Notes: generated by a model from the sequence alone, not told the origin. Numbered from the stretch's first letter, positions 8,902 to 57,583 are shown. The stretch is DNA of 64,000 bases from Bdellovibrionales bacterium (GCA_965116155.1 OZ220488.1:450420-514419); one strand, 5' to 3'. Numbers and translations are program-made.

Positions 8902-9008
8902 CCTATGAGGGGCGCGTCAAAATCCCTTAGCGCGCGTGACAGATATGCAACATTGCGTTACTAGATGTGTGTTTTTTAGATGGTTTTCAGCAGTTAGGAG
9001 TTTTTAAT

Positions 9009-11234
9009 ATGCGTGTATTGGGTGCATACTTTTTGTATGGGTGTGGTGCTCTGTTTTGGTGCTCTGTTTTGGCGCTGTGTTTGGGCGCAAGCTTTGTGGC
9101 CGCGGAGAGCGGCTCTGTAGGTACCAGTGGCCCTCAAAAGGAGTGTACGGCTTTGCTTAAGGGTTCTGTATTTTTAAAAAAACTCCCCCACCGGGCGTTG
9201 GCTTTTGACAAAATCGGTCCTGAGGATATTTACGCCCCATTAGATGCTACTATTAAAAAAGCAACAGCTGATGTTAAGGCCATAGCCGAGTCCCGTGAGG
9301 CGCCTAGTTTTAAAAACACCGTAGAGGCTTTAGAGCATGTGGATGCCGACATGACCCGCGTTTACGGGGCCATGGACGTGCTAAGCATACATAAAATGAG
9401 CCCCGCGCAGACGAAGCTTGAAAAGCACTTTGTACCTAAGATGGTGGAATTTAGCAGCAAGATTCTATCTAACAAAAAGCTTTTTGCCCGTATTAAGCAT
9501 GTATACGAGCAACACGCTTATAACAATACACCCCGTGGTCTCAGTGTAGAGCAAAAAAGGCTTCTTAATGAGACTTACAATAAATTTGCCAAAAACGGCG
9601 CAGGCCTTAGCGAAAATAAGCAAAAACGTTTTCGTAAAATTTCGCAAGAGCTGGGTGTTTTGAGCATTCAGTTTAAAGAAAATGTCCGGCAGAGCATTGC
9701 GGATTTTAATTTGTATTTGAGTGAGGGCGAGATCGCAGGATTGCCTGAGGATTTAAAAGCCGCCGCCCGCAAAAAGGCCCAAGTGGCTGGCAGTAAAGAT
9801 AAGTACATTATTGGTATAGATTATTCTGACTACATGCAGGCTATGAAGTACCTAGATAGCTCGGAGGCGCGGCGCAAGTTATGGGACGCCAAAGGCAAGG
9901 TGGCATCCCAGGGCTTGTTTGATAACAGCAAGATTGTGGCTAGAATTTTGGAGCTACGCAACCAAAAGGCTAAGCTGTTGGGTTATGCGTCGCATGCTCC
10001 AAGGGCAATGGAGGAGCGCATGGCAAAAACTCCCCAAAGGGTGTGGGAGTTTTTGCAGACCCTTTACGATGCCATATTGCCTTACGCTGAAAAAGAGTGG
10101 CAAGAGCTGCAGGCTTTTGCCAAAGCCCAAGGGTACAAGGGCTCTTTACAGGCGTGGGATATTACCTACTACCACACCAAGCTCAAAGAGCGCCAGCAGG
10201 GTTTTGATGTAAAACTGTTACGCAACTACCTTAATGTGGGCAGCACGTTAAAGGCTTTGTTTAAGGTGGCAAAGCGCTTGTATGGGTTGGAGTTTAAGTT
10301 AAAGCCGCATGCTGCGTATCCGGTGTGGGATAAAGAGATGCAAGTGTATGAGGTGTCGCGCAAAGGGGATTTTGTGGGGCTGTTGTATTTGGATCTATTC
10401 TCGCGCCCGCAAGAGAAAAAAGAAGGCGCCTGGATGCATGATTTTTTAACCCAAGGGCAGTGGAAGCGCAGGCTGCAGCGCCCGCATGTTTTGGTGGCGA
10501 CTAACTTCACGCCTCAAGAAGAGTTAGCCTTTAAGGACCGTCTTATAGAGTGGTACGACGTTTATGTGTTGTTTCATGAGTTTGGGCATGCTTTGCATGG
10601 GCTTTTGGCGCAGGGGCGGTACCGATCGCTTAGTGGCACTAATGTGGCGCTGGATTTGGTGGAGCTGCCTTCGCAGGTTTTAGAGAACTGGATATACGAG
10701 CCTGAGGTGGCGCAGTTGCTGGGTCGGCATTACAAAAGCAAAAAACCCCTGCCTGAGGCTTGGATAAAAAAGATCCGCGCCAACAAAAACCTAGACACCA
10801 GCCCTATGCAAAAGCTAAGGCAGGTTCGTATGTCTATGCTGGATATGGCATGGCATGACGGGCCCTATCAGCCCAAGAGCTGGAAGGATTTGGATGTTAT
10901 AGGTTTTGAGAAGGAGTTTTTGGCAAAATTTCCTGGTGTGGTGCCGCAGCACCCTGCTGCCAAAAAGCACAGTACGACTTTAAGTTTTAGCCATTTGTTT
11001 TCTAGCATGTACGATGCGGGTTATTATAGTTATCTTTGGTCTGAGATGCTGGTCGCGGGTGCTTGGCCGGTGTTTGAGCGGGGGGGATTTTTGTCGCGCA
11101 AGATGGGCCGCCGGTTTGAGGAGTGTATTTTGTCTAAAGGCAACACTCGGGAGGCGGAGGTTTTGTTTGCGGATTTTTGCCCGCACCAACCTACCGCCCA
11201 AGACCTGGTTAGATTTTGGGAGTTTAAAGACTAG
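9009..11234 (+). CDS. Secreted M3-family zinc metallopeptidase (peptidyl-dipeptidase Dcp / oligopeptidase A-like)
   Basis: It carries the HEFGHALH zinc motif, and its length and overall pattern fit the M3 family. The ATG at 9009 follows AGGAG by about 8 nt and gives a signal-peptide-like N-terminus (..VLALCLGASFVAAES). The longest ORF starts at 8967. Confidence 0.8.
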   Translation: MRVLGAYFLYGCGALFWCSVLALCLGASFVAAESGSVGTSGPQKECTALLKGSVFLKKLPHRALAFDKIGPEDIYAPLDATIKKATADVKAIAESREAPSFKNTVEALEHVDADMTRVYGAMDVLSIHKMSPAQTKLEKHFVPKMVEFSSKILSNKKLFARIKHVYEQHAYNNTPRGLSVEQKRLLNETYNKFAKNGAGLSENKQKRFRKISQELGVLSIQFKENVRQSIADFNLYLSEGEIAGLPEDLKAAARKKAQVAGSKDKYIIGIDYSDYMQAMKYLDSSEARRKLWDAKGKVASQGLFDNSKIVARILELRNQKAKLLGYASHAPRAMEERMAKTPQRVWEFLQTLYDAILPYAEKEWQELQAFAKAQGYKGSLQAWDITYYHTKLKERQQGFDVKLLRNYLNVGSTLKALFKVAKRLYGLEFKLKPHAAYPVWDKEMQVYEVSRKGDFVGLLYLDLFSRPQEKKEGAWMHDFLTQGQWKRRLQRPHVLVATNFTPQEELAFKDRLIEWYDVYVLFHEFGHALHGLLAQGRYRSLSGTNVALDLVELPSQVLENWIYEPEVAQLLGRHYKSKKPLPEAWIKKIRANKNLDTSPMQKLRQVRMSMLDMAWHDGPYQPKSWKDLDVIGFEKEFLAKFPGVVPQHPAAKKHSTTLSFSHLFSSMYDAGYYSYLWSEMLVAGAWPVFERGGFLSRKMGRRFEECILSKGNTREAEVLFADFCPHQPTAQDLVRFWEFKD

Positions 11235-11431: not shown

Positions 11432-11993
11432 GTTGCTTAACCACAAAGAAAGTGCTAAAAAGCAACAAAAAAATATACTGCGAAATGACTAAAAACGAGG
11501 GATGCCGCCCTATAAGGAACCCTACAAGGAAAAGCGTAAATGAAAAAACTTTTGTGTGCGTTTTTGATTTTGTTTTTGTGCTCGTATGCTTGGGCAGGTA
11601 AAGGCATACGCGGTGACTATTGGGGCAAGCCCAAAGCAGCTAGTGATCCAATAAACTTGCCGGATTCTGTTAAAAATATGCTGGATGCAGAGGTTCTGAC
11701 AGGCGCTATGCTGCCTCTTTTTTGGGCCATTAAACACAAAGATTACGCTCTTGTAAAAACTTTGCTAAACCACAAAATAGATATCAATGCTCAAGATGCC
11801 CAAGGCCGCACGGCTCTTATGCAGGCGGTGCAAATGCCTAACTATGCAGATATTGAGACTTTGTTGGGCCATGCCGGCGTTGATATTAACCAAACAGACG
11901 ACCATGGCAAAACGGCTCTTTTTTGGGCTGCGCAAAGGGGCAGATTGCACTTTATAAAAACTTTATTAAATAGTGGCATTGATGTTAACGCCA
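11432..11993 (+). repeat. Segmental duplication, copy 1 (leader, signal peptide and first three ANK repeats), paralogous to 49435-49995
   Basis: By manual alignment, 11613-11993 and about 49612-49995 differ at about 8 positions in ~380 bp. The upstream ~110 bp and the signal-peptide region are more diverged but clearly homologous. Confidence 0.85.
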
Positions 11994-12679
11994 GGGGCGA
12001 ATATGGCAATACAGCTCTTATTTGGGCGGCGTATAACGGGCATGAAGAGTCTGTGCAGGCTCTTTTAGCTCATAAAGATATTGATGTTAACGCCAAGGAC
12101 GATGCTGGCGATACAGCGCTTATTTTGGCTGCGAGCAGAGGGAATGAAGAATCTGTACAAGCTCTTTTGGCTCATGAAGATATTGATGTTAATGCTAAGG
12201 GCGAATGTGGCTATACAGCGCTTAGTTGGGCTGCGCGTAACAGGCATGAAGAGTCTGTGCAGGCTCTTTTAGAACATAAAGATATTGATGTTAACGCCAA
12301 GGACGGTGATGGCAATACAGCGCTTATTTGGTCTGCGCGCAGAGGGCATGAAGAGTCTGTGCAGGCTCTTTTAGCTCATAAAGATATTGATGTTAATGCC
12401 AAGGACGGTGATGGCAATACAGCGCTTATTTGGGCTGCGTATGAAGGGCATGAAGAGTCTGTGCAAGCTCTTTTAGCGCGTAAAGATACTGATGTTAACG
12501 CCAGGGGCGAATATGGCTATACAGCGCTTTTTTGGGCTGCGCATGACGGGCGTGAAGCGCTTGTAGGGATTTTGCGAGAGCATGGGGCTATTAATGCTGG
12601 CACAATAGAAAAACCTGGCGCTGTGAACGTGCTTTTACAGCGTGGCAAATCACTCTGCACAAAGTTATTACAAAGTTAG
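11540..12679 (+). CDS. Secreted ankyrin-repeat protein (9 ANK repeats)
   Basis: It has the Sec signal peptide MKKLLCAFLILFLCSYAWA-GKG. Repeats follow of the form G-x-TAL-x-x-AA-x-x-GHEESVQALLAHKDIDVNAKxxx. The stop codon TAG (12677-12679) lies inside repeat module A. Confidence 0.9.
   Translation: MKKLLCAFLILFLCSYAWAGKGIRGDYWGKPKAASDPINLPDSVKNMLDAEVLTGAMLPLFWAIKHKDYALVKTLLNHKIDINAQDAQGRTALMQAVQMPNYADIETLLGHAGVDINQTDDHGKTALFWAAQRGRLHFIKTLLNSGIDVNARGEYGNTALIWAAYNGHEESVQALLAHKDIDVNAKDDAGDTALILAASRGNEESVQALLAHEDIDVNAKGECGYTALSWAARNRHEESVQALLEHKDIDVNAKDGDGNTALIWSARRGHEESVQALLAHKDIDVNAKDGDGNTALIWAAYEGHEESVQALLARKDTDVNARGEYGYTALFWAAHDGREALVGILREHGAINAGTIEKPGAVNVLLQRGKSLCTKLLQS
12005..12600 (+). repeat. 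In-frame 102-bp (34-aa) near-identical tandem ANK repeat array within ank1
   Basis: Units start at 12005, 12107, 12209, 12311, 12413 and 12515. The core CATGAAGAGTCTGTGCAGGCTCTTTTAGCTCATAAAGATATTGATGTTAA is almost invariant between units. Confidence 0.85.
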
Positions 12680-12870
12680 AGCGCTAGGAAAATGCCATGG
12701 GATTAAGCGCATCTTCCTGATAGCACCTAAAGGTGCGGCCATCAGGAAGATAAGCGTCCCACATGGCATTTTCCGACCTATAAGGCATCTATGGCCCTGC
12801 GGGATTGTGCGATCGTTAGGCACAAGGCGTCCAGACTTGCGTCAAAGTCCCGTACGTTGAGCAAACAAAA
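12676..12870 (+). repeat. Modular palindromic intergenic repeat, full A-B-C unit
   Basis: Module A is TTAGAGCGCTAG at 12676-12687. Module B is a long hairpin at 12687-12774 (GGAAAATGCCATGGGA..TCCCACATGGCATTTTCC, with inner stem TCTTCCTGAT/ATCAGGAAGA). Module C runs from CCTATAAGG.. through GCGTCAAAGTCCCGTACGTTGAGCAAACAAAA. Confidence 0.85.
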
Positions 12871-13062
12871 ATTAGAGCGCTAGCGAAATTCTCTGGGATA
12901 AGCGCGTGAGCATAAAGGTGTGTCAGTCTTCACAACAAGGTAACATTGCTGGCGCTTTTATGCTTACGCCTTTAGGCGAACGCACCACATCCTGCGTCTC
13001 ACCCATGTCCCACTGGCAGGCGCCAAAGGCGCCGGATACCAGTGGGACCAACAGCAGCGCGT
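12871..13062 (+). repeat. Second repeat unit: module A, left arm of module B, inverted pair of module E, and module D hairpin
   Basis: ATTAGAGCGCTAGCGAAATTCTCTGGGATAAGCGCG starts at 12871. GCGTGAGCATAAAGGTG (12904-12920) is paired with GCGCTTTTATGCTTACGC (12952-12969). Module D GTCCCACTGG..CCAGTGGGAC lies at 13007-13048. Confidence 0.8.
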
Positions 13063-13114
13063 AACATAAAAGCCACCCCTAATGCCTAAAGGCATTAGGG
13101 GTGGCTTTTATGTT
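13063..13114. terminator. 24-bp hairpin straddling the secF stop codon (candidate bidirectional terminator)
   Basis: CATAAAAGCCACCCCTAATGCC (13065-13086), loop TAAA, GGCATTAGGGGTGGCTTTTATG (13091-13112), plus two further A:T pairs. The secF stop (13079-13081) is inside the left arm. The right arm and loop encode IKATPNAFRH. Confidence 0.7.
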
Positions 13115-35137: not shown

Positions 35138-36028
35138 CTATTTTCTACGCCCTAAAGCTAAACGCCGCAAACGAGAAATCAGTTCCCCGTCTACTTCCTC
35201 TTTTTCTAAAACCAACACTTCACTCTCACGTATAGAAGCCACAACCCCTTTTTGATTCCCAATACGCGTGTTAATGCCTATAGTGTGGATCGTGCCCTCA
35301 GGATCCTCTACCATAGCCTGCGGCGTCTCCACATCCCACATGATACCAATTAGCTTAATCTGAGAGAGAGAAAACCTTTGCAAAGGCAACAAAACGGTAT
35401 GTACGTCTTGATCAGACGCCAACCCCCTGCTGCCACCACTTTGCTCACGCTGCAAAAAAATGTCCGGCGGCCTAAAAGGATTACGCTTGTTGGCATCGGT
35501 ATAAATAAAAGGCTCCGAACTAAAAGCCCCGTACTTGGCCTTTTTAGCATCCACCAGGCTGCCCGTGACGGGCTTTTTTTTCTTCTCCGTAACTTTAGCT
35601 GCTTGTGCAGAACCTGCCTCACTGCCTCCTTCTTCTTCTCCTTCTCCTTCGCCAGGAGCCTCATTGCCAGATTCTTCAGCTGCAGCTGGGGGGCGCGCGC
35701 CACTAGACTCACCATCCAAATCACCATCTGCTTCCTCACCCGGCATAAGAGGTTTTTGCGCGCCGTCACCGTCTGCAAGCTTTCCCTCTGCCTCTGCTTC
35801 TGGCGCATCCTGCTTCTCGGCGCTTGACTGCTCAGTTGACTGCTCAGTTGACTGCTCAGTTGATTGGGAATTAGGTTCTTTCTGGTCGCGAGCCAATGCC
35901 TCGCCCTCTTGAGCCATAGCGCTATTTTGTGCGAGCGCAATCGCCCACTTAAAAGACATAAAAAACGCTGCACTCAGTATCAAAGCCGCAAAGCTGCAGT
36001 ACAAAAGCCTAACCCATCGCTGCCACAC
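35138..36028 (-). CDS. pilP: PilP-like pilus assembly protein with a long acidic low-complexity linker
   Basis: It has an N-terminal TM segment. The C-terminal region NKRNPFRPPD..LQRFSLSQIKLIGIMWD..AMVEDPEGTIHTIGINTRIG..GVVASIRESEVLV matches the PilP pattern. It sits between pilO and pilQ. Confidence 0.7.
   Translation of the reverse strand: MWQRWVRLLYCSFAALILSAAFFMSFKWAIALAQNSAMAQEGEALARDQKEPNSQSTEQSTEQSTEQSSAEKQDAPEAEAEGKLADGDGAQKPLMPGEEADGDLDGESSGARPPAAAEESGNEAPGEGEGEEEGGSEAGSAQAAKVTEKKKKPVTGSLVDAKKAKYGAFSSEPFIYTDANKRNPFRPPDIFLQREQSGGSRGLASDQDVHTVLLPLQRFSLSQIKLIGIMWDVETPQAMVEDPEGTIHTIGINTRIGNQKGVVASIRESEVLVLEKEEVDGELISRLRRLALGRRK
35824..35863 (-). repeat. 12-bp perfect tandem repeat (3.3 copies) encoding (STEQ)n inside the pilP-like gene
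   Basis: TTGACTGCTCAG occurs three times (35824-35859) plus a partial TTGA. On the minus strand it is translated as QSTEQSTEQSTEQS. Confidence 0.9.
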
Positions 36029-49434: not shown

Positions 49435-49995
49435 GTTGCCTAACCACAAAGAAAATGCTAAACAGCAAACAAAATGCAATGCGAAGTGACTAAAAACGAA
49501 AAGGCGCCGCCCTGTAAGGAACCCTACAAGGAAAAGCGTAAATGAAAAAGCTTTTGTGTGCGTTTTTGGCTTTGGTTTTGTGCTCGTATGCTTGGGCTGG
49601 CAAAGCCCCGCGCGATGATTATTGGGGCAAGCCCAAAGCAGCTAGTGATCCAATAAACTTGCCGGATTCTGTTAAAAATATGCTGGATGCAGAGGTTTTG
49701 ACGGGCGCTATGCTGCCTCTTTTTTGGGCCATTAAACACAAAGATTACGCTCTTGTAAAAACTTTGCTGAACCACAAAATAGATATCAATGCTCAAGATG
49801 CCCAAGGCCGCACGGCTCTTATGCAGGCGGTGCAAATGCCTAACTATGCAGATATTGAAACTTTGTTGGGCCATGCCGGCGTTGATATTAACCAAAAAGA
49901 CGACCATGGCAAAACGGCTCTTTTTTGGGCTGCGCGCAGAGGCAGATTGCACTTTATAAAAACTTTATTAAATAGTGGCATTGATGTTAACGCCA
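49435..49995 (+). repeat. Segmental duplication, copy 2 (paralogous to 11432-11993)
   Basis: See copy 1. It has the same orientation and lies about 38 kb downstream. Confidence 0.85.
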
Positions 49996-50531
49996 AAGAC
50001 AAAGGTAGCGATACAGCGCTTATTTGGGCTGCGCACAAAGGGCATGAAGAGGTTGTGCAAGCTCTTTTAGAACGTAAAGATATCGATGTTAACGCCAAGG
50101 ACGGTTGGGGCAATACAGCGCTTATTTGGGCGGCGCGCAAAGGGCATGAAGAATCTGTACAAGCTCTTTTAGCGCGTAAAGATATCGATGTTAACGCCAA
50201 GGACGGTTGGGGCAATACAGCGCTTATTCGGGCTGCGCACAAAGGGCATGAAGAATCTGTGCAAGCTCTTTTAGCGCGTAAAGATATTGATGTTAACGCC
50301 AAGAACGATTGGGGCAGTACAGCGCTTATTCGGGCTGCGCACAAAGGGCGTGAAGAATCTGTGCAAGCTCTTTTGGCTCATGAAGATATTGATGTTAACG
50401 CCAAGGACGCAGATGGCAATACAGCTCTTATTGGGGCGAAAAAAAACAATCACAAGAAAATTGCAAAAGCAATAAGCCTTGTCCGACAGGCTCGCGCCGA
50501 ACCATCGTGTGCAGAGCTACTAGTCCCTTAA
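49542..50531 (+). CDS. Secreted ankyrin-repeat protein (8 ANK repeats), paralogue of ank1
   Basis: It has the signal peptide MKKLLCAFLALVLCSYAWA-GKA. The first ~150 aa are nearly identical to ank1, after which the repeat array differs (DGWGNTALIWAARKGHEESVQALLARKDIDVNAK..). Confidence 0.9.
   Translation: MKKLLCAFLALVLCSYAWAGKAPRDDYWGKPKAASDPINLPDSVKNMLDAEVLTGAMLPLFWAIKHKDYALVKTLLNHKIDINAQDAQGRTALMQAVQMPNYADIETLLGHAGVDINQKDDHGKTALFWAARRGRLHFIKTLLNSGIDVNAKDKGSDTALIWAAHKGHEEVVQALLERKDIDVNAKDGWGNTALIWAARKGHEESVQALLARKDIDVNAKDGWGNTALIRAAHKGHEESVQALLARKDIDVNAKNDWGSTALIRAAHKGREESVQALLAHEDIDVNAKDADGNTALIGAKKNNHKKIAKAISLVRQARAEPSCAELLVP
50007..50430 (+). repeat. In-frame 102-bp near-identical tandem ANK repeat array within ank2
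   Basis: Units start at 50007, 50109, 50211, 50313 and 50415. Confidence 0.85.
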
Positions 50532-50639: not shown

Positions 50640-50862
50640 ACAGGCCCATAAAAGCGCCAGCAATATTGCCTTGAACCTTAGAGTGCAGCCATCTTGGCAG
50701 CCCACAGGGTGTTAGCCAAGATGGCAAACAAAGTCTTCAAGGTAATATTGCTGGCGCTAGACAGCTACCAACACGCCGATAGCTTTGGGGGCTCTCTAAC
50801 CCCAAAGCGTCCAAACTCACTTAACCTAGCACGCCGCCGCTTAGTCCCAGAGAATTTTATCA
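50640..50862 (-). repeat. Rearranged member of the intergenic repeat family downstream of the VKOR-DsbA gene
   Basis: A 23-bp stem AGCGCCAGCAATATTGCCTTGAA (50653-75) / TTCAAGGTAATATTGCTGGCGCT (50736-58) encloses an 11-bp stem GCCATCTTGGC/GCCAAGATGGC. The linker CTAGACAGCTA follows. On the minus strand, TAAAATTCTCTGGGACTAAGCGG (left arm of B) starts right after the stop at 50860-62. Confidence 0.7.
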
Positions 50863-54594: not shown

Positions 54595-56331
54595 ATGGGG
54601 TGTTTGCGTTTTTTAACAGTTTCGCTATTCGTTTTAGGCACGGCCACGGCATGGGGGGGAGACCGCCATCGCAAAACGGCGCTATTAAGCGCTGCTAAAA
54701 AGGGGGACAAGGCTCAGGTAGAGCATCTGCTTAACGAACATCAGGTGGATGTCAATATGAAGGGCCGCGTAGGCAATACGGCGCTTATACTGGCTGCCGA
54801 TAATGGCCACACAAATGTTGTGCGGTTTTTACTCAGCTACCCTGGAGTGGATGTTAATGCCACTAACAAATACGGGCAAAGCGCCCTGGTGCTGGCGACT
54901 AGAGACGCGCGCGTAGACATCATAGGGCTACTGATTAATAAGGGTGCCGATACAAATGTTTACACCCGAGACGGGTGGACGGCGCTTTTGGTCGCTGCCA
55001 ACCAGGGACGTGCTGACATTGCAAACACACTCTTGCGCCATGGGGCAGATGTTAACACCGCTACCAGCGAGGGGGGCACGGCTTTAACTTTGGCGGCTGA
55101 AAATGGCTTTGATAGCATTGTGGATTTGCTGCTTAAGGAACCCTCGCTTAACATAAACGCCACTACCACAGGCGGCTGGACGGCTCTCATGTACGCTGCT
55201 CGAAGAGGTTCCGATGGGGTTGTGGGTTTATTGCTTAACCAGACCCAGTTTGACCTAGATGTAAATGCCAGCAGTCGCCATGGCAATACGGCTTTAACTT
55301 TGGCGGCTCAAAAAGGACACGAAGGGGTTGTGTCTTTGCTAATAAACCAAACGCAGTTTCCGGTAGAGATTAATGCTACGGATAAAGACGGTGACACTGC
55401 GCTCATAATAGCCACCATTAAAGGCTTTGAGGGTATTGTTGCGGCCTTGCTAGAAACGCACGCAGCAGATGTAAATGCTAGTAATCGCAAAGGCAACACC
55501 GCACTTATAATAGCGGCTGAAAAAGGCTTTGAGGGTATTGTGTCGCTTTTGCTTTACGAGCCTGATTTAGAAGTTAATGCCACGGACAAGAATGGCACCA
55601 CGGCTCTTGTGTGGGCGGCTTTAAGAGGGCATGAGGGTATTTTGAAATTGATGTTAGACCACCCCGAAACTGACAGTAACTCTGCCAACAAATGGGGCAA
55701 TACGGCTTTGCACTTAGCGGCGCGCGAGGGCTTTGAGGGGGCGGTTGCGACCTTGTTGCATCACCCAGACCACCGCACCATAATAGACCCTAATGCGGCT
55801 GATGAGGATGGTGACACGCCTTTAGCTCTGGCCGCCTCAAAAAACCGCGCCGGTGTTGTGCGCATTCTGCTAGACAACCCCAGGGTGCTTATTAACACCG
55901 CTGACCAAAAAGGGCGCACGCCCCTCTATATGGCGGCTTGGAACAACAGCCTCAGTGTGGTGCCGCTCTTGCTAGAGCACTACGACACTGACGTCAACGC
56001 TGCTGGTGGCCCATCTGACCTTACACCCCTTGGCGTTGCAGCCTTGAATAACCATGCAGGTATTGTGGCTTTGCTGATGAAGCGCCGGGATTTAAATATT
56101 AATGCTACAGACAAAATGGGTGAGACAGCGCTTATAACTGCTGTCAAAAAAGGCCACATCAAAACGGTGCAAAAGTTGCTTTTGCACCCTGGAGTGGACC
56201 TGTATATAAAGAACTACAACGGGCATAATGCTTTTTATTACGCCCAAGGCTTAGAGGACGACACCATAGAGCAGGCTTTAAAACGTGAGTCTATTAAGCG
56301 CCGCAGGCGCGGAGGGTGCAGGCGCTGCTAG
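54595..56331 (+). CDS. Secreted ankyrin-repeat protein (about 16 ANK repeats) with a polybasic/Cys C-terminus
   Basis: It has the signal peptide MGCLRFLTVSLFVLGTATA-WGG. ANK units GNTALILAADNGH..VDVNA recur throughout. The protein ends ..KRESIKRRRRGGCRRC. Confidence 0.9.
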   Translation: MGCLRFLTVSLFVLGTATAWGGDRHRKTALLSAAKKGDKAQVEHLLNEHQVDVNMKGRVGNTALILAADNGHTNVVRFLLSYPGVDVNATNKYGQSALVLATRDARVDIIGLLINKGADTNVYTRDGWTALLVAANQGRADIANTLLRHGADVNTATSEGGTALTLAAENGFDSIVDLLLKEPSLNINATTTGGWTALMYAARRGSDGVVGLLLNQTQFDLDVNASSRHGNTALTLAAQKGHEGVVSLLINQTQFPVEINATDKDGDTALIIATIKGFEGIVAALLETHAADVNASNRKGNTALIIAAEKGFEGIVSLLLYEPDLEVNATDKNGTTALVWAALRGHEGILKLMLDHPETDSNSANKWGNTALHLAAREGFEGAVATLLHHPDHRTIIDPNAADEDGDTPLALAASKNRAGVVRILLDNPRVLINTADQKGRTPLYMAAWNNSLSVVPLLLEHYDTDVNAAGGPSDLTPLGVAALNNHAGIVALLMKRRDLNINATDKMGETALITAVKKGHIKTVQKLLLHPGVDLYIKNYNGHNAFYYAQGLEDDTIEQALKRESIKRRRRGGCRRC

Positions 56332-56370: not shown

Positions 56371-56407
56371 GCCGCAAGGTCTCCTTAGAGAGGCCTTGTG
56401 GCTTTTT
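56371..56407 (+). terminator. Intrinsic terminator downstream of ank3
   Basis: GCCGCAAGGTCTC (56371-83), loop CTTAGA, GAGGCCTTGTGGC (56390-56402). The stem has two G.U pairs on the plus-strand RNA and is followed by TTTTT (56403-07). Confidence 0.6.
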
Positions 56408-56428
56408 GGTATTTTAGGAGGTGGAGCA

Positions 56429-57583
56429 ATGACGGCACTGAAGTGGTTGTATTTAACTTTGGCTTTTGGTTTGAGCTTGGGGCAGGTGCTTAGGGCGGAG
56501 CTTACTTTGGGCACTTTTAATGCGGGTTTGGCGCACCATTTTGTGCCTTTGGCTACGGAGCGTTTGGAGCCTGTAACGCAGGCCATAGTGGAGAGTGAGT
56601 TTGATGTTTTGTGTTTGCAAGAGGTGTGGCGTGATGAGGACCGCGAGCACCTGCAAGCGGCTGTTCAGGATGTGTACCCGCATATGCTTTGGGCGCGCAC
56701 AGAGAACGAAAAAACCCCGCGCTGGCCGGCTTGCACTCCGCTGGATCTGTTTGGCAAGGGGTCGGTAGTGTCTTGCATGCAAAAGGCCTGTGCCGATGCT
56801 CCTGATGCTGAGGCCAAAAGCCAGTGCATTAAAGAGCGCTGCCGCCCTCAGTTTGATGCTTTGGCGCAAAAAAAGCCCCAGTGTGCGGCGGCTTTTTTTG
56901 CCCAAGTGGGCAAAAGCTCTATTAGGGCATTGGTGACCCTGCTGCTTACCAAGGCAGGCGTGTATGCTTACAAGGGGCGAAATGGCTTGCTGCTGCTTTC
57001 GAAAAAGCCTTTCGTACGAAATGGGCGCTTTACCAGCATGGTGTCTACCACTAACAGGCGCGCGGCACTGGGAGTGCAATTTGAGCACGCGGGGCAGTTG
57101 CATACGGCTCTTTGTACGCACTTAACGGCCAACTTGGAGGCGCATATACCTTACACAGGTCCATGGGCTGGAGAATGGGAAGAAGAAAACTACAAACAAA
57201 GCCGTAAAGTGTGGGGCTGGGCAGAACAAATGGGCGCCGAGCCTGGAGCGAATGACAAGGGGCCGATTTATATTATGGGGGATTTTAACTTTTCGCCCTC
57301 TTTGCCGAGCGCGGGTATTGCGGGGGATTTTGAGATGGCGCTCGAGTTTTTTTTAAGTAAGGGTTATGTGTCGCCCATTATCGATACAGCCCAGTGCACC
57401 TCTTGCGCGAGCAACCCTTTAAAAGCGAAGGGAGAGAAAAACACTTTGCTGGACCATGTTTTTGTTAAGCGCGCAAAGGTGAGGGAGGCTGAGATTGTGC
57501 TAGATCAAGAGATTCTAGTGGGTGATGGAATAAAAACGCGTCTCTCCGACCACTATGGCGTGAGAGTCGTTGTGGAGCACTAA
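56429..57583 (+). CDS. Secreted endonuclease/exonuclease/phosphatase (EEP) family phosphodiesterase, sphingomyelinase/nuclease-like
   Basis: The EEP motifs are VLCLQEVW, IMGDFNFS, LLDHVF and RLSDHYGV. The ATG at 56429 follows AGGAGG. The signal peptide is MTALKWLYLTLAFGLSLGQVLRA-E. A 6-Cys insert lies between the first two motifs. Confidence 0.8.
   Translation: MTALKWLYLTLAFGLSLGQVLRAELTLGTFNAGLAHHFVPLATERLEPVTQAIVESEFDVLCLQEVWRDEDREHLQAAVQDVYPHMLWARTENEKTPRWPACTPLDLFGKGSVVSCMQKACADAPDAEAKSQCIKERCRPQFDALAQKKPQCAAAFFAQVGKSSIRALVTLLLTKAGVYAYKGRNGLLLLSKKPFVRNGRFTSMVSTTNRRAALGVQFEHAGQLHTALCTHLTANLEAHIPYTGPWAGEWEEENYKQSRKVWGWAEQMGAEPGANDKGPIYIMGDFNFSPSLPSAGIAGDFEMALEFFLSKGYVSPIIDTAQCTSCASNPLKAKGEKNTLLDHVFVKRAKVREAEIVLDQEILVGDGIKTRLSDHYGVRVVVEH

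What the first reader, a model, noticed from the sequence alone, without database searches (positions are those of the whole stretch)
12005..12600. Ankyrin arrays behave like natural DARPin libraries: near-identical 102-bp DNA repeats with variation focused on canonical target-contact positions
Within ank1 and ank2 (50007-50430) the repeats share an almost invariant core (GHEESVQALLA[HR]KDIDVNAK at protein level, and nearly identical DNA). The differences concentrate in the beta-turn triplet before the conserved Gly (DDA, GEC, DGD, GEY, DGW, NDW, DAD, DKG) and the residue after it (N/D/Y/S). They also fall in helix-1 positions TAL-[ISF]-[WLRG] and in the pair before GH (YN, SR, RN, RR, YE, HD, HK, RK). 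In ankyrin repeat proteins the beta-turn tips and the first-helix face form the binding groove. These are essentially the positions randomised in designed ankyrin repeat protein libraries (2, 3, 5, 13, 14, 33 of the consensus module). The combination of concerted evolution of the scaffold with diversification of the contact surface suggests selection for changing binding specificity, for example of host or prey targets. The 34-residue period, one longer than the canonical 33, is also unusual.
Basis: partly seen in the sequence, partly recalled or inferred. Interest (0 to 1): 0.6.

Follow-up and report, generated by a model that had tools for sequence, protein, structure and literature searches.

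The report
Secreted ankyrin paralogs with variable binding face
Two duplicated genes of a Bdellovibrio-like bacterium encode exported ankyrin-repeat proteins whose young 34-residue repeats differ mainly on the usual ankyrin binding face. This pattern is already known from fungal immune receptors and is largely generic to ankyrin repeats, and here only two positions show a real excess of amino-acid change.

Summary
The repeats are real. ank1 (11540-12679) and ank2 (49542-50531) are paralogous ankyrin proteins with Sec signal peptides. They carry 5 and 4 core 102-bp (34-aa) repeats.

- The units are 78-95% identical in DNA (mean 85%), not near-identical.
- DARPin position 33 is not variable.
- A 34-residue period is common, not unusual.

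The five most variable codons (3, 2, 13, 14, 5) are five of the six DARPin library positions. The same positions are also the most variable in 389 unrelated ankyrin repeats, so the location of the variation is generic.

What goes beyond generic is modest:
- omega is about 2.5-3.5 on the concave set. It is 0.7 on generically variable convex positions and 0.3 elsewhere.
- A site model favours a positively selected class (2dlnL 12.8; 0 of 61 null simulations reach it).
- That class rests on positions 3 and 13 only.

No close relatives exist in any collection searched, so strains could not be compared. The scaffold shows repeat shuffling between the two genes.

Verdict: a new bacterial member of a known kind, namely ankyrin arrays that diversify by repeat turnover plus selection on the binding face, as in fungal NLRs. 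The binding target is unknown. Interest is modest.

The parts
11432..11539 (+). Upstream region shared with ank2 (49435-49541). It holds the AAGGA ribosome-binding site and probably the promoter.
   Evidence: blastn shows the ank1/ank2 duplication running 11432-12435 against 49435-50437 at 89% identity. The sequences are shown. No sigma-70 consensus was found on the + strand.
11540..12679 (+). ank1 coding sequence, 379 aa, 9 ankyrin repeats.
   Evidence: ORF. Pfam Ank_4/Ank_2/Ank at E 6e-72 to 8e-64. AF2 pLDDT 87, pTM 0.83, with nine helix pairs. Foldseek top hits are DARPins and ankyrins.
11540..11596 (+). Sec-type signal peptide, MKKLLCAFLILFLCSYAWA|G.
   Evidence: Read directly from the sequence: a basic n-region, a hydrophobic core and an A-W-A cleavage motif, with no lipobox. 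This is inference; no predictor was available. AF2 gives a low-confidence helix at residues 2-19.
11702..11995 (+). Repeats r1-r3: diverged N-terminal repeats that are 95% identical in DNA between ank1 and ank2.
   Evidence: Across the N-terminal 152 codons, dS is 0.124 and dN is 0.031.
11996..12505 (+). ank1 core array, five 102-bp units (r4-r8) starting at 11996, 12098, 12200, 12302 and 12404. The hypervariable codons of each unit are 1, 2, 3, 5, 10, 13 and 14.
   Evidence: TRF. Codon table. Identity matrix.
12506..12607 (+). r9, the C-terminal capping repeat. Its first 16 codons are like the core and the rest is diverged. The DVNARGEYG junction is the same as at r3/r4.
49542..50531 (+). ank2 coding sequence, 329 aa. 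It is a paralog of ank1 with the same signal peptide and N-terminal repeats but an unrelated C-terminus.
49998..50405 (+). ank2 core array, four 102-bp units (r4-r7) starting at 49998, 50100, 50202 and 50304.
50406..50507 (+). ank2 r8, the C-terminal capping repeat.
54595..56331 (+). ank3, a third ankyrin protein with a signal peptide (578 aa). It has about 15 diverged repeats of 33-38 aa and is 35-40% identical to ank1. It is listed as context, not as part of the near-identical arrays.
12687..12774 (+). Long nested hairpin directly after the ank1 stop codon.
   Evidence: Inverted repeats. MFE -51 kcal/mol, z -7.9.
50653..50758 (+). Long nested hairpin downstream of ank2. Its arms carry the 19-nt motif that is also found at 12937.
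   Evidence: MFE -66.4 kcal/mol, z -10.1.

Best explanation
ank1 and ank2 are paralogous ankyrin-repeat binding proteins of a divergent Bdellovibrionota bacterium, exported by the Sec pathway.

Shown:
- Each protein has a signal peptide, three older diverged repeats, a block of 4-5 young 34-residue repeats and a capping repeat, and folds as a DARPin-like solenoid.
- The young repeats arose by tandem duplication. They have since been reshuffled within and between the two loci, so no in-register orthology remains and recombination is detectable.
- Amino-acid differences among these repeats sit on the beta-turn and inner-helix face. They exceed the synonymous rate there, mainly at positions 3 and 13. 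The outer helix is frozen.

Inferred:
- Repeat duplication and shuffling, plus diversifying selection on the concave face, retune what each protein binds in the periplasm or outside the cell.
- The two paralogs have acquired different specificities. The ank2 face is rich in W/R/H/K and the ank1 face is a mix of D/E/Y/R.
- The ligand is unknown. It could be prey or host envelope proteins, or the organism's own exported enzymes.
For: - ORFs, Pfam hits and TRF arrays.
- High-confidence AF2 solenoid with DARPins as best matches.
- Variability is concentrated at positions 3, 2, 13, 14, 5, 1 and 10.
- omega for the DARPin set is 2.53 against 0.39 for the rest, 2dlnL 7.7, with 2 of 93 parametric-bootstrap replicates as extreme.
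- For the ANK-N5C set omega is 2.8.
- Three-partition model: concave 3.46, convex generically variable 0.73, other 0.29. Equality of concave and convex is rejected at 2dlnL 13.7.
- Tree-free codon bootstrap: dN(contact)/dS(all) is 2.07 (CI 0.92-4.7) for the DARPin set and 2.27 (1.14-5.0) for the concave set, against 0.40 for the convex set.
- M2a over M1a, 2dlnL 12.8, omega2 8.8 on 6.5% of sites, which are sites 3 and 13. None of 29 plain null simulations and none of 32 recombining null simulations reach this.
- Repeat turnover: the N-terminal parts of the paralogs have dS 0.12, but in-register repeats have dS 0.28. The closest scaffold pairs are out of register (A1r8-A2r6 3/81, A1r5-A2r7 5/81). 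Codons 18 and 26 violate the four-gamete test.
- Precedent for the mechanism in fungal NLR ankyrin arrays (PMC4986451).
Against: - There are only 9 repeats from one genome, and p-values are about 0.01-0.04.
- The null LRT distribution is inflated relative to chi-square (95% quantile 4.7-6.9 in the two batches). With recombination the largest null value was 12.5, against 12.8 observed.
- Only two sites are individually supported. Both involve multi-nucleotide codon changes, which single-step codon models over-score.
- The same positions are the most variable in ankyrin repeats generally (PMC4308713).
- No relatives were found, so there is no polymorphism or repeat-number evidence.
- The concave-face mapping rests on alignment to DARPins and on secondary structure, not on measured coordinates.
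- Export is inferred from the sequence alone.
- The function and target are untested.
Confidence: 0.55

Rival explanations
1. Neutral reading. The repeats are simply recent tandem duplicates. The scaffold is held by purifying selection and the exposed loop and helix-1 positions drift freely, so no selection for new specificities is involved.
For: - The variable positions are the generically high-entropy ones of all ankyrin repeats (PMC4308713).
- In the site model, positions 1, 2, 5 and 14 fall in the omega = 1 class.
- The bootstrap CI for the DARPin set includes 1 (0.92-4.7).
- The p-values are marginal and the sample is tiny.
Against: - omega point estimates are 2.1-3.5 for every a-priori concave set.
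- M2a is preferred, and 0 of 61 null simulations reach the observed statistic.
- Generically variable convex positions 17, 18 and 21 are invariant here, which pure relaxation does not predict.
- In the closest cross-gene pairs, the hypervariable codons differ at 33-52% of nucleotides against 4-6% in the scaffold.
Confidence: 0.3
2. Functional rival, compatible with either evolutionary reading. The proteins are periplasmic self-protection inhibitors of the bacterium's own exported hydrolases, like Bdellovibrio Bd3460. On this view ank1 might act on the exported M3 peptidase encoded just upstream.
For: - Bd3460 is a small ankyrin protein with a signal peptide, from the same bacterial group. It is encoded after its target gene and blocks that target by steric occlusion (PMC4686830).
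- ank1 lies 305 bp downstream of an M3 peptidase gene (8967-11234) on the same strand.
Against: - The duplicated unit starts only 108 bp upstream of the ATG, so each paralog carries its own upstream region.
- ank2 and ank3 have no hydrolase partner next to them. Their neighbours are a TAXI-TRAP binding protein, VKOR-DsbA and ArgRS, with an EEP-family protein after ank3.
- No ANK gene sits next to SecF in 80 related loci.
- An inhibitor of a self enzyme gives no obvious reason for diversifying selection.
Confidence: 0.2
3. Targeted hypermutation, as in diversity-generating retroelements, writes the variation into the repeats.
For: The variation is focused on a few codons. Several of the codons involved are AAY/GAY-type.
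Against: - No template copy of the unit exists outside the two genes in the window.
- Variable columns are not restricted to adenines: the fraction variable is A 0.48 against 0.37 for each of C, G and T.
- Synonymous scaffold differences are also present.
- The scaffold is not a known DGR target fold.
Confidence: 0.01
4. Assembly artefact: the arrays are mis-assembled or collapsed repeats.
For: Tandem repeats with a paralogous copy 38 kb away are a classic assembly hazard. The origin of the sequence is unknown.
Against: - Both ORFs are intact and in frame through all units.
- The units differ by 5-22 nt each, which is enough to anchor reads.
- AF2 folds the product as a regular solenoid.
- The flanks are unique housekeeping genes.
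Confidence: 0.03

Closest known systems
Highly internally conserved ANK repeat arrays of fungal NLR (NACHT/NB-ARC-ANK) proteins (Dyrka et al. 2014, PMC4986451; Podospora Pa_3_8560)
   Same: - The repeats are 33-34 aa and tandemly duplicated or shuffled.
- The variable or positively selected sites (five in Pa_3_8560) lie on the inner helix and the beta-hairpin of the concave face.
- The proposed logic is the same: repeat shuffling plus selection creates new binding surfaces.
- Many of the best metagenome hits to ank1 look fungal.
   Different: - There is no NOD or effector domain here, only a signal peptide plus ANK repeats.
- The host is bacterial.
- Internal identity is 75-80% aa, below their 85% criterion.
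- Repeat-number polymorphism among individuals could not be tested.
- Only two sites are supported.
Designed ankyrin repeat proteins (DARPins) and the ANK-N5C library (PMC4308713)
   Same: - The fold is the same (6mok_A TM 0.91, rmsd 2.1 A).
- There is a consensus-like scaffold with capping repeats.
- Natural variation falls at 2, 3, 5, 13 and 14 (DARPin set) and at 10 (ANK-N5C set).
   Different: - The module is 34 rather than 33 residues, with one extra loop residue.
- The motif is TALI rather than TPLH.
- Position 33 is fixed, while positions 1 and 26 vary.
- The library positions were themselves derived from natural ankyrin variability, so the resemblance is expected.
Bd3460, the periplasmic ankyrin self-protection protein of Bdellovibrio bacteriovorus (PMC4686830)
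   Same: A small exported ankyrin protein with a signal peptide, from a related lineage. It works by steric binding through the ankyrin surface.
   Different: - Bd3460 has six irregular repeats of about 33 aa with no near-identical array.
- It is encoded next to its DD-endopeptidase target, and no such partner is found here.
- Sequence relatedness beyond the generic ANK fold was not tested.
Wolbachia ANK genes with tandem-repeat expansion and contraction (WD0766, WD0550; PMC3287509)
   Same: These are bacterial ankyrin genes detectable by TRF, in which duplication, loss and shuffling of repeats are the diversifying mechanism. ANK genes are also unusually dense: 3 in this 64-kb window, against 2-4% of all genes in Wolbachia.
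   Different: - The Wolbachia proteins belong to an intracellular symbiont and some carry transmembrane domains. These proteins carry Sec signal peptides.

Membership tests
Ankyrin repeat superfamily (Pfam PF00023/PF12796/PF13637) | Match to the Pfam Ank models above the gathering score | tested here: met
   ank1 scores 208-237 bits and ank2 181-216 bits, against cut-offs of 21-27.
Ankyrin repeat superfamily (Pfam PF00023/PF12796/PF13637) | Stacked helix-loop-helix plus beta-hairpin solenoid | tested here: met
   AF2 pLDDT is 96-99 in the repeats, with nine helix pairs. Foldseek top hits are DARPins, ankyrin-1 and RNase L ANK.
Ankyrin repeat superfamily (Pfam PF00023/PF12796/PF13637) | Canonical 33-residue module with a TPLH motif | tested here: not met
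   The units are 34 residues with TALI/TALS. The insertion is in the loop after helix 2. This is a common variant: 33% of spacings in homologs are 34 residues.
Fungal-NLR-type highly internally conserved (HiC) repeat arrays (Dyrka 2014) | Over 85% identity between repeats over at least 100 aa | tested here: not met
   Mean amino-acid identity is 75% in ank1 and 80% in ank2, range 65-94%.
Fungal-NLR-type highly internally conserved (HiC) repeat arrays (Dyrka 2014) | NACHT or NB-ARC NOD domain N-terminal to the repeats | tested here: not met
   Pfam finds only ANK families. The N-terminus is a signal peptide.
Fungal-NLR-type highly internally conserved (HiC) repeat arrays (Dyrka 2014) | Positive selection at concave-face positions | tested here: met
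   omega is 2.5-3.5 on the concave sets. M2a assigns sites 3 and 13 to the selected class. p is about 0.01-0.04 from simulations. Support is modest.
Fungal-NLR-type highly internally conserved (HiC) repeat arrays (Dyrka 2014) | Repeat-number polymorphism between individuals | not testable with these tools
   No close relative was found in the protein, genome or metagenome collections. Only the two paralogs could be compared, and they differ (5 against 4 core units).
DARPin-like binder library pattern | Variation confined to positions 2, 3, 5, 13, 14 and 33 on an otherwise fixed module | tested here: inconclusive
   Five of the six positions are the top five variable sites. Position 33 is fixed, and positions 1, 10, 25-27 and 16 also vary.
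Bd3460-type self-protection ankyrin | Signal peptide plus a small all-ANK protein | tested here: met
   Sequence and Pfam.
Bd3460-type self-protection ankyrin | Encoded next to the peptidoglycan DD-endopeptidase it inhibits | tested here: not met
   The neighbours are an M3 peptidase, SecF, TAXI-TRAP and VKOR-DsbA.
Bd3460-type self-protection ankyrin | Specific sequence relatedness to Bd3460 | not tested
   Bd3460 is not among the 60 best PDB sequence hits shown. No direct comparison was made.
Legionella/Coxiella Dot/Icm ankyrin effectors | Score above the NCBIfam equivalog cut-off | tested here: not met
   The best score is 113-118 bits against cut-offs of 450-1400, which is generic ANK similarity only. 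A Sec signal peptide also argues against T4SS delivery.
Diversity-generating retroelement target | Template repeat and adenine-specific variation | tested here: not met
   No extra copy of the unit exists in the window. Variable columns are not specific to adenine.

The most novel reading that the evidence does not exclude
A predatory or parasitic Bdellovibrionota bacterium keeps a small family of exported ankyrin binders. These binders evolve as an adaptive repertoire. Repeats are exchanged between paralogous loci, and the centre of the binding groove (positions 3 and 13) is under an arms-race type of selection against prey or host envelope proteins. This would be a bacterial, secreted counterpart of the fungal NLR repeat-shuffling system.
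Probability: 0.2. Interest if true: 0.55.

Novelty: new member of a known kind. Interest (0 to 1): 0.33.

Why it matters
If the selection signal holds up, these genes would give a bacterial example of diversification by repeat shuffling plus selection on the binding face. That mode is so far documented mainly for fungal NLR ankyrin, TPR and WD arrays. It would also mark candidate specificity determinants of a poorly known Bdellovibrio-like lineage, acting on prey, a host or the cell's own enzymes. The proteins are also ready-made, naturally stable 34-residue ankyrin scaffolds. As it stands, the evidence comes from one genome and nine repeats, so the finding is a lead rather than a result.

Tried and rejected
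- Exact look-up of ank1 in the assembly index: not on record.
- Word-indexed homolog search: 3763 generic ANK hits, best 50% identity, no ortholog.
- Genome scan with SecF, to find relatives and check synteny. The best hit was a Bdellovibrionales MAG at 59% identity. tblastn with ank1 found no ANK gene in any of the 80 loci.
- Metagenome scan with ank1: at most 43% identity, and many hits look fungal.
- Full HMMER search with the N-terminal 122 aa. It was swamped by giant multi-ANK proteins matching residues 55-122, with no signal for the unique N-terminus.
- Literature search by PDB codes 6NE1, 6NE2, 6NDZ and 6NE4: irrelevant hits.
- Promoter and terminator scans: no sigma-70-like site upstream on the + strand. 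The '-' strand hits are just the repeat sequence.
- Rfam and tRNA scans of the whole window: nothing.
- NCBIfam and PADLOC: only sub-threshold generic ANK similarity to Legionella Ank effectors, MzaA and PDC-M72A.
- DGR hypothesis: rejected.
- Strict within-gene concerted evolution: rejected, because scaffold distances within and between the genes are equal.
- Chi-square p-values for my likelihood-ratio tests were not trusted, because simulated nulls were inflated. Simulation-based values are reported instead.

Full report
**What is there**

The window holds two paralogous genes: ank1 (11540-12679, +, 379 aa) and ank2 (49542-50531, +, 329 aa).
- Both match the Pfam ankyrin families far above threshold.
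- Both begin with a typical Sec signal peptide, MKKLLCAF..SYAWA|G. This is read from the sequence, since no predictor was available.
- Tandem Repeats Finder reports 102-bp arrays at 11978-12557 (5.7 copies, 83% matches) and 49983-50437 (4.5 copies, 89%).
- In DARPin register, ank1 has five core units (starts 11996, 12098, 12200, 12302, 12404) and ank2 has four (49998, 50100, 50202, 50304).
- In each gene the core units are preceded by three older repeats and followed by a diverged capping repeat.
- A third ankyrin gene with a signal peptide, ank3 (54595-56331), has about 15 diverged repeats of 33-38 residues.

**Checking the observation**

Among the nine core units, nonsynonymous differences rank by codon as 3 > 2 > 13 > 14 > 5 > 1 > 10 > 26.
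- The six DARPin positions carry 209 of 376 pairwise nonsynonymous differences. A random set of six codons does as well with P = 1.5e-5.

Four sub-claims do not hold:
- The units are 78-95% identical in DNA (mean 85%). The scaffold alone is 90.5% identical, with dS about 0.24. 'Near-identical' is too strong.
- DARPin position 33 is fixed as Lys (one Arg), while positions 1 and 10 vary.
- The 20-residue core is exact in only 4 of 9 units.
- The 34-residue period is not unusual. It accounts for 33% of repeat spacings in 120 homologs, against 40% for 33 residues. It occurs in ank3, and it is the stated range (33-34) for fungal NLR ankyrin repeats (PMC4986451).

The extra residue is a single insertion in the loop after helix 2.

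**Structure**

AlphaFold2 gives a regular nine-repeat solenoid.
- The mean pLDDT is 87, and 96-99 across the repeats.
- Helix 1 falls on unit positions 7-13 and helix 2 on positions 17-24.
- The best PDB matches by sequence and by fold are DARPins and natural ankyrins. An example is 6mok_A (TM 0.91, rmsd 2.1 A).
- The variable positions (1-3, 5, 10, 13, 14) lie in the beta-turn and the inner helix. Established ankyrin knowledge and crystal structures of library proteins (PMC4308713) place the binding surface there.
- The outer helix is invariant except for one S19V change.

I could not access coordinates, so this mapping is by alignment and secondary structure.

**Is the positional pattern special?**

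Largely not.
- In 389 repeats taken from the 120 unrelated homologs, the highest-entropy positions are 13, 5, 3, 17, 10, 2, 14 and 26.
- The ANK-N5C paper states that positions 2, 3, 5, 10 and 13 were randomised because they are the high-entropy positions of natural repeats.
- The coincidence with library positions is therefore expected for any ankyrin protein.

What is informative is the contrast within this family. Positions 17, 18 and 21, which are generically free, are invariant here, while the concave positions have diverged by several nucleotides per codon.

**Selection tests**

PAML was not available. I wrote a GY94-type codon likelihood (F3x4 frequencies, NJ tree).

| Test | Result | Calibration |
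|---|---|---|
| A-priori DARPin set (2, 3, 5, 13, 14, 33) against the rest | omega 2.53 against 0.39; test against omega = 1 gives 2dlnL 7.7 | 2 of 93 null replicates as extreme (parametric bootstrap, tree re-estimated); the null is inflated relative to chi-square |
| ANK-N5C set | omega 2.8 | none |
| Three partitions | concave 3.46, convex generically variable 0.73, other 0.29; concave = convex rejected, 2dlnL 13.7 | none |
| Tree-free codon bootstrap, dN(contact)/dS(all) | DARPin set 2.07 (CI 0.92-4.7); concave set 2.27 (1.14-5.0); convex set 0.40 | bootstrap intervals as given |
| Site models, M2a against M1a | 2dlnL 12.8; 6.5% of sites at omega about 8.8 | 0 of 29 plain nulls (max 5.6); 0 of 32 nulls with three independently shuffled segments (max 12.5) |

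- In the site model, only sites 3 and 13 have posterior of at least 0.99. Site 10 has 0.19. Sites 1, 2, 5 and 14 sit in the neutral class.
- There is therefore a real but modest excess of amino-acid change, carried by two central groove positions.
- Caveats: nine sequences, multi-nucleotide codon changes, and recombination.

**Repeat history**

- The paralogs' N-terminal 152 codons differ by dS 0.12. In-register repeats differ by dS 0.28.
- Scaffold-only distances do not cluster by gene: 7.9 within ank1, 7.0 within ank2 and 7.8 between, of 81 nt.
- The closest pairs are out of register: A1r8-A2r6 (3 differences) and A1r5-A2r7 (5 differences).
- Codons 18 and 26 show all four allele combinations across the units.
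- The arrays have therefore been rearranged or exchanged since the gene duplication. This is repeat turnover and shuffling rather than clean within-gene homogenisation.
- In the two closest cross-gene pairs, the seven hypervariable codons differ at 33-52% of nucleotides against 4-6% in the scaffold.

**Context and relatives**

- SecF next to ank1 is at best 59% identical to Bdellovibrionales MAGs, so the genome is a divergent member of Bdellovibrionota.
- None of the 80 related SecF loci has an ankyrin gene nearby.
- No close homolog of ank1 exists in the protein database, the genome set, the metagenomes or the representative library.
- The neighbours are housekeeping genes: an M3 peptidase, SecDF, a TAXI-TRAP transporter, VKOR-DsbA and ArgRS.
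- NCBIfam and PADLOC hits are generic and below threshold.
- A DGR mechanism is excluded.

**Interpretation**

The most likely reading is that these are exported ankyrin binders whose specificity is retuned by repeat duplication and shuffling plus selection on the groove. This is the mode described for fungal NLR ankyrin arrays (PMC4986451).
- Repeat expansion and contraction is also seen in Wolbachia ANK genes (PMC3287509).
- The purely neutral rival (purifying selection on the scaffold, drift on the surface) remains plausible at about 0.3.
- A Bd3460-like role as inhibitor of the cell's own exported enzymes (PMC4686830) is possible but lacks the defining gene pairing.

The finding is a new bacterial member of a known kind, of modest interest until more genomes or binding data exist.

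Noticed in passing
window 12687-12774 and 50653-50758: Long, nearly perfect nested hairpins lie directly downstream of both ank genes. Their MFE values are -51 and -66 kcal/mol, with z scores of -7.9 and -10.1. They could be REP- or MITE-like elements, or transcript-stabilising or terminator structures. There is no Rfam match.
   Followed up: partly
window 12937-12955 (+), 50654-50672 (-), 50739-50757 (+): The 19-nt motif AAGGTAAYATTGCTGGCGC occurs three times in the window, only in the two intergenic regions after ank1 and ank2, where 0 are expected by chance. Two of the copies form the arms of the ank2 hairpin.
   Followed up: partly
window 54595-56331: A third ankyrin gene with a signal peptide (578 aa, about 15 diverged repeats of 33-38 residues) is followed by an endonuclease/exonuclease/phosphatase-family gene (56396-57583). 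Three exported ANK genes in 64 kb is an unusually high density for a bacterium.
   Followed up: partly
window 9044-9088: A 13-bp tandem repeat (3.5 copies, 90-92% matches) lies inside the predicted signal-peptide region of the M3 peptidase ORF (8967-11234). The period is not a multiple of three, so copy-number change would shift the reading frame.
   Followed up: no
window 13067-13110: A perfect 21-bp palindrome, followed by a T-run on the minus strand, lies at the 3' end of secF. It is probably the secDF terminator.
   Followed up: no
window 11978-12557: TRF scores a 306-bp (three-unit) period higher than the 102-bp period in ank1 (878 against 773). The junction DVNARGEYG recurs at r3/r4 and r8/r9. 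This hints that the array grew by duplication of multi-repeat blocks.
   Followed up: partly
window 35824-35863: A perfect 12-bp tandem repeat (TTGACTGCTCAG, 3.3 copies) lies within ORFs on the minus strand.
   Followed up: no
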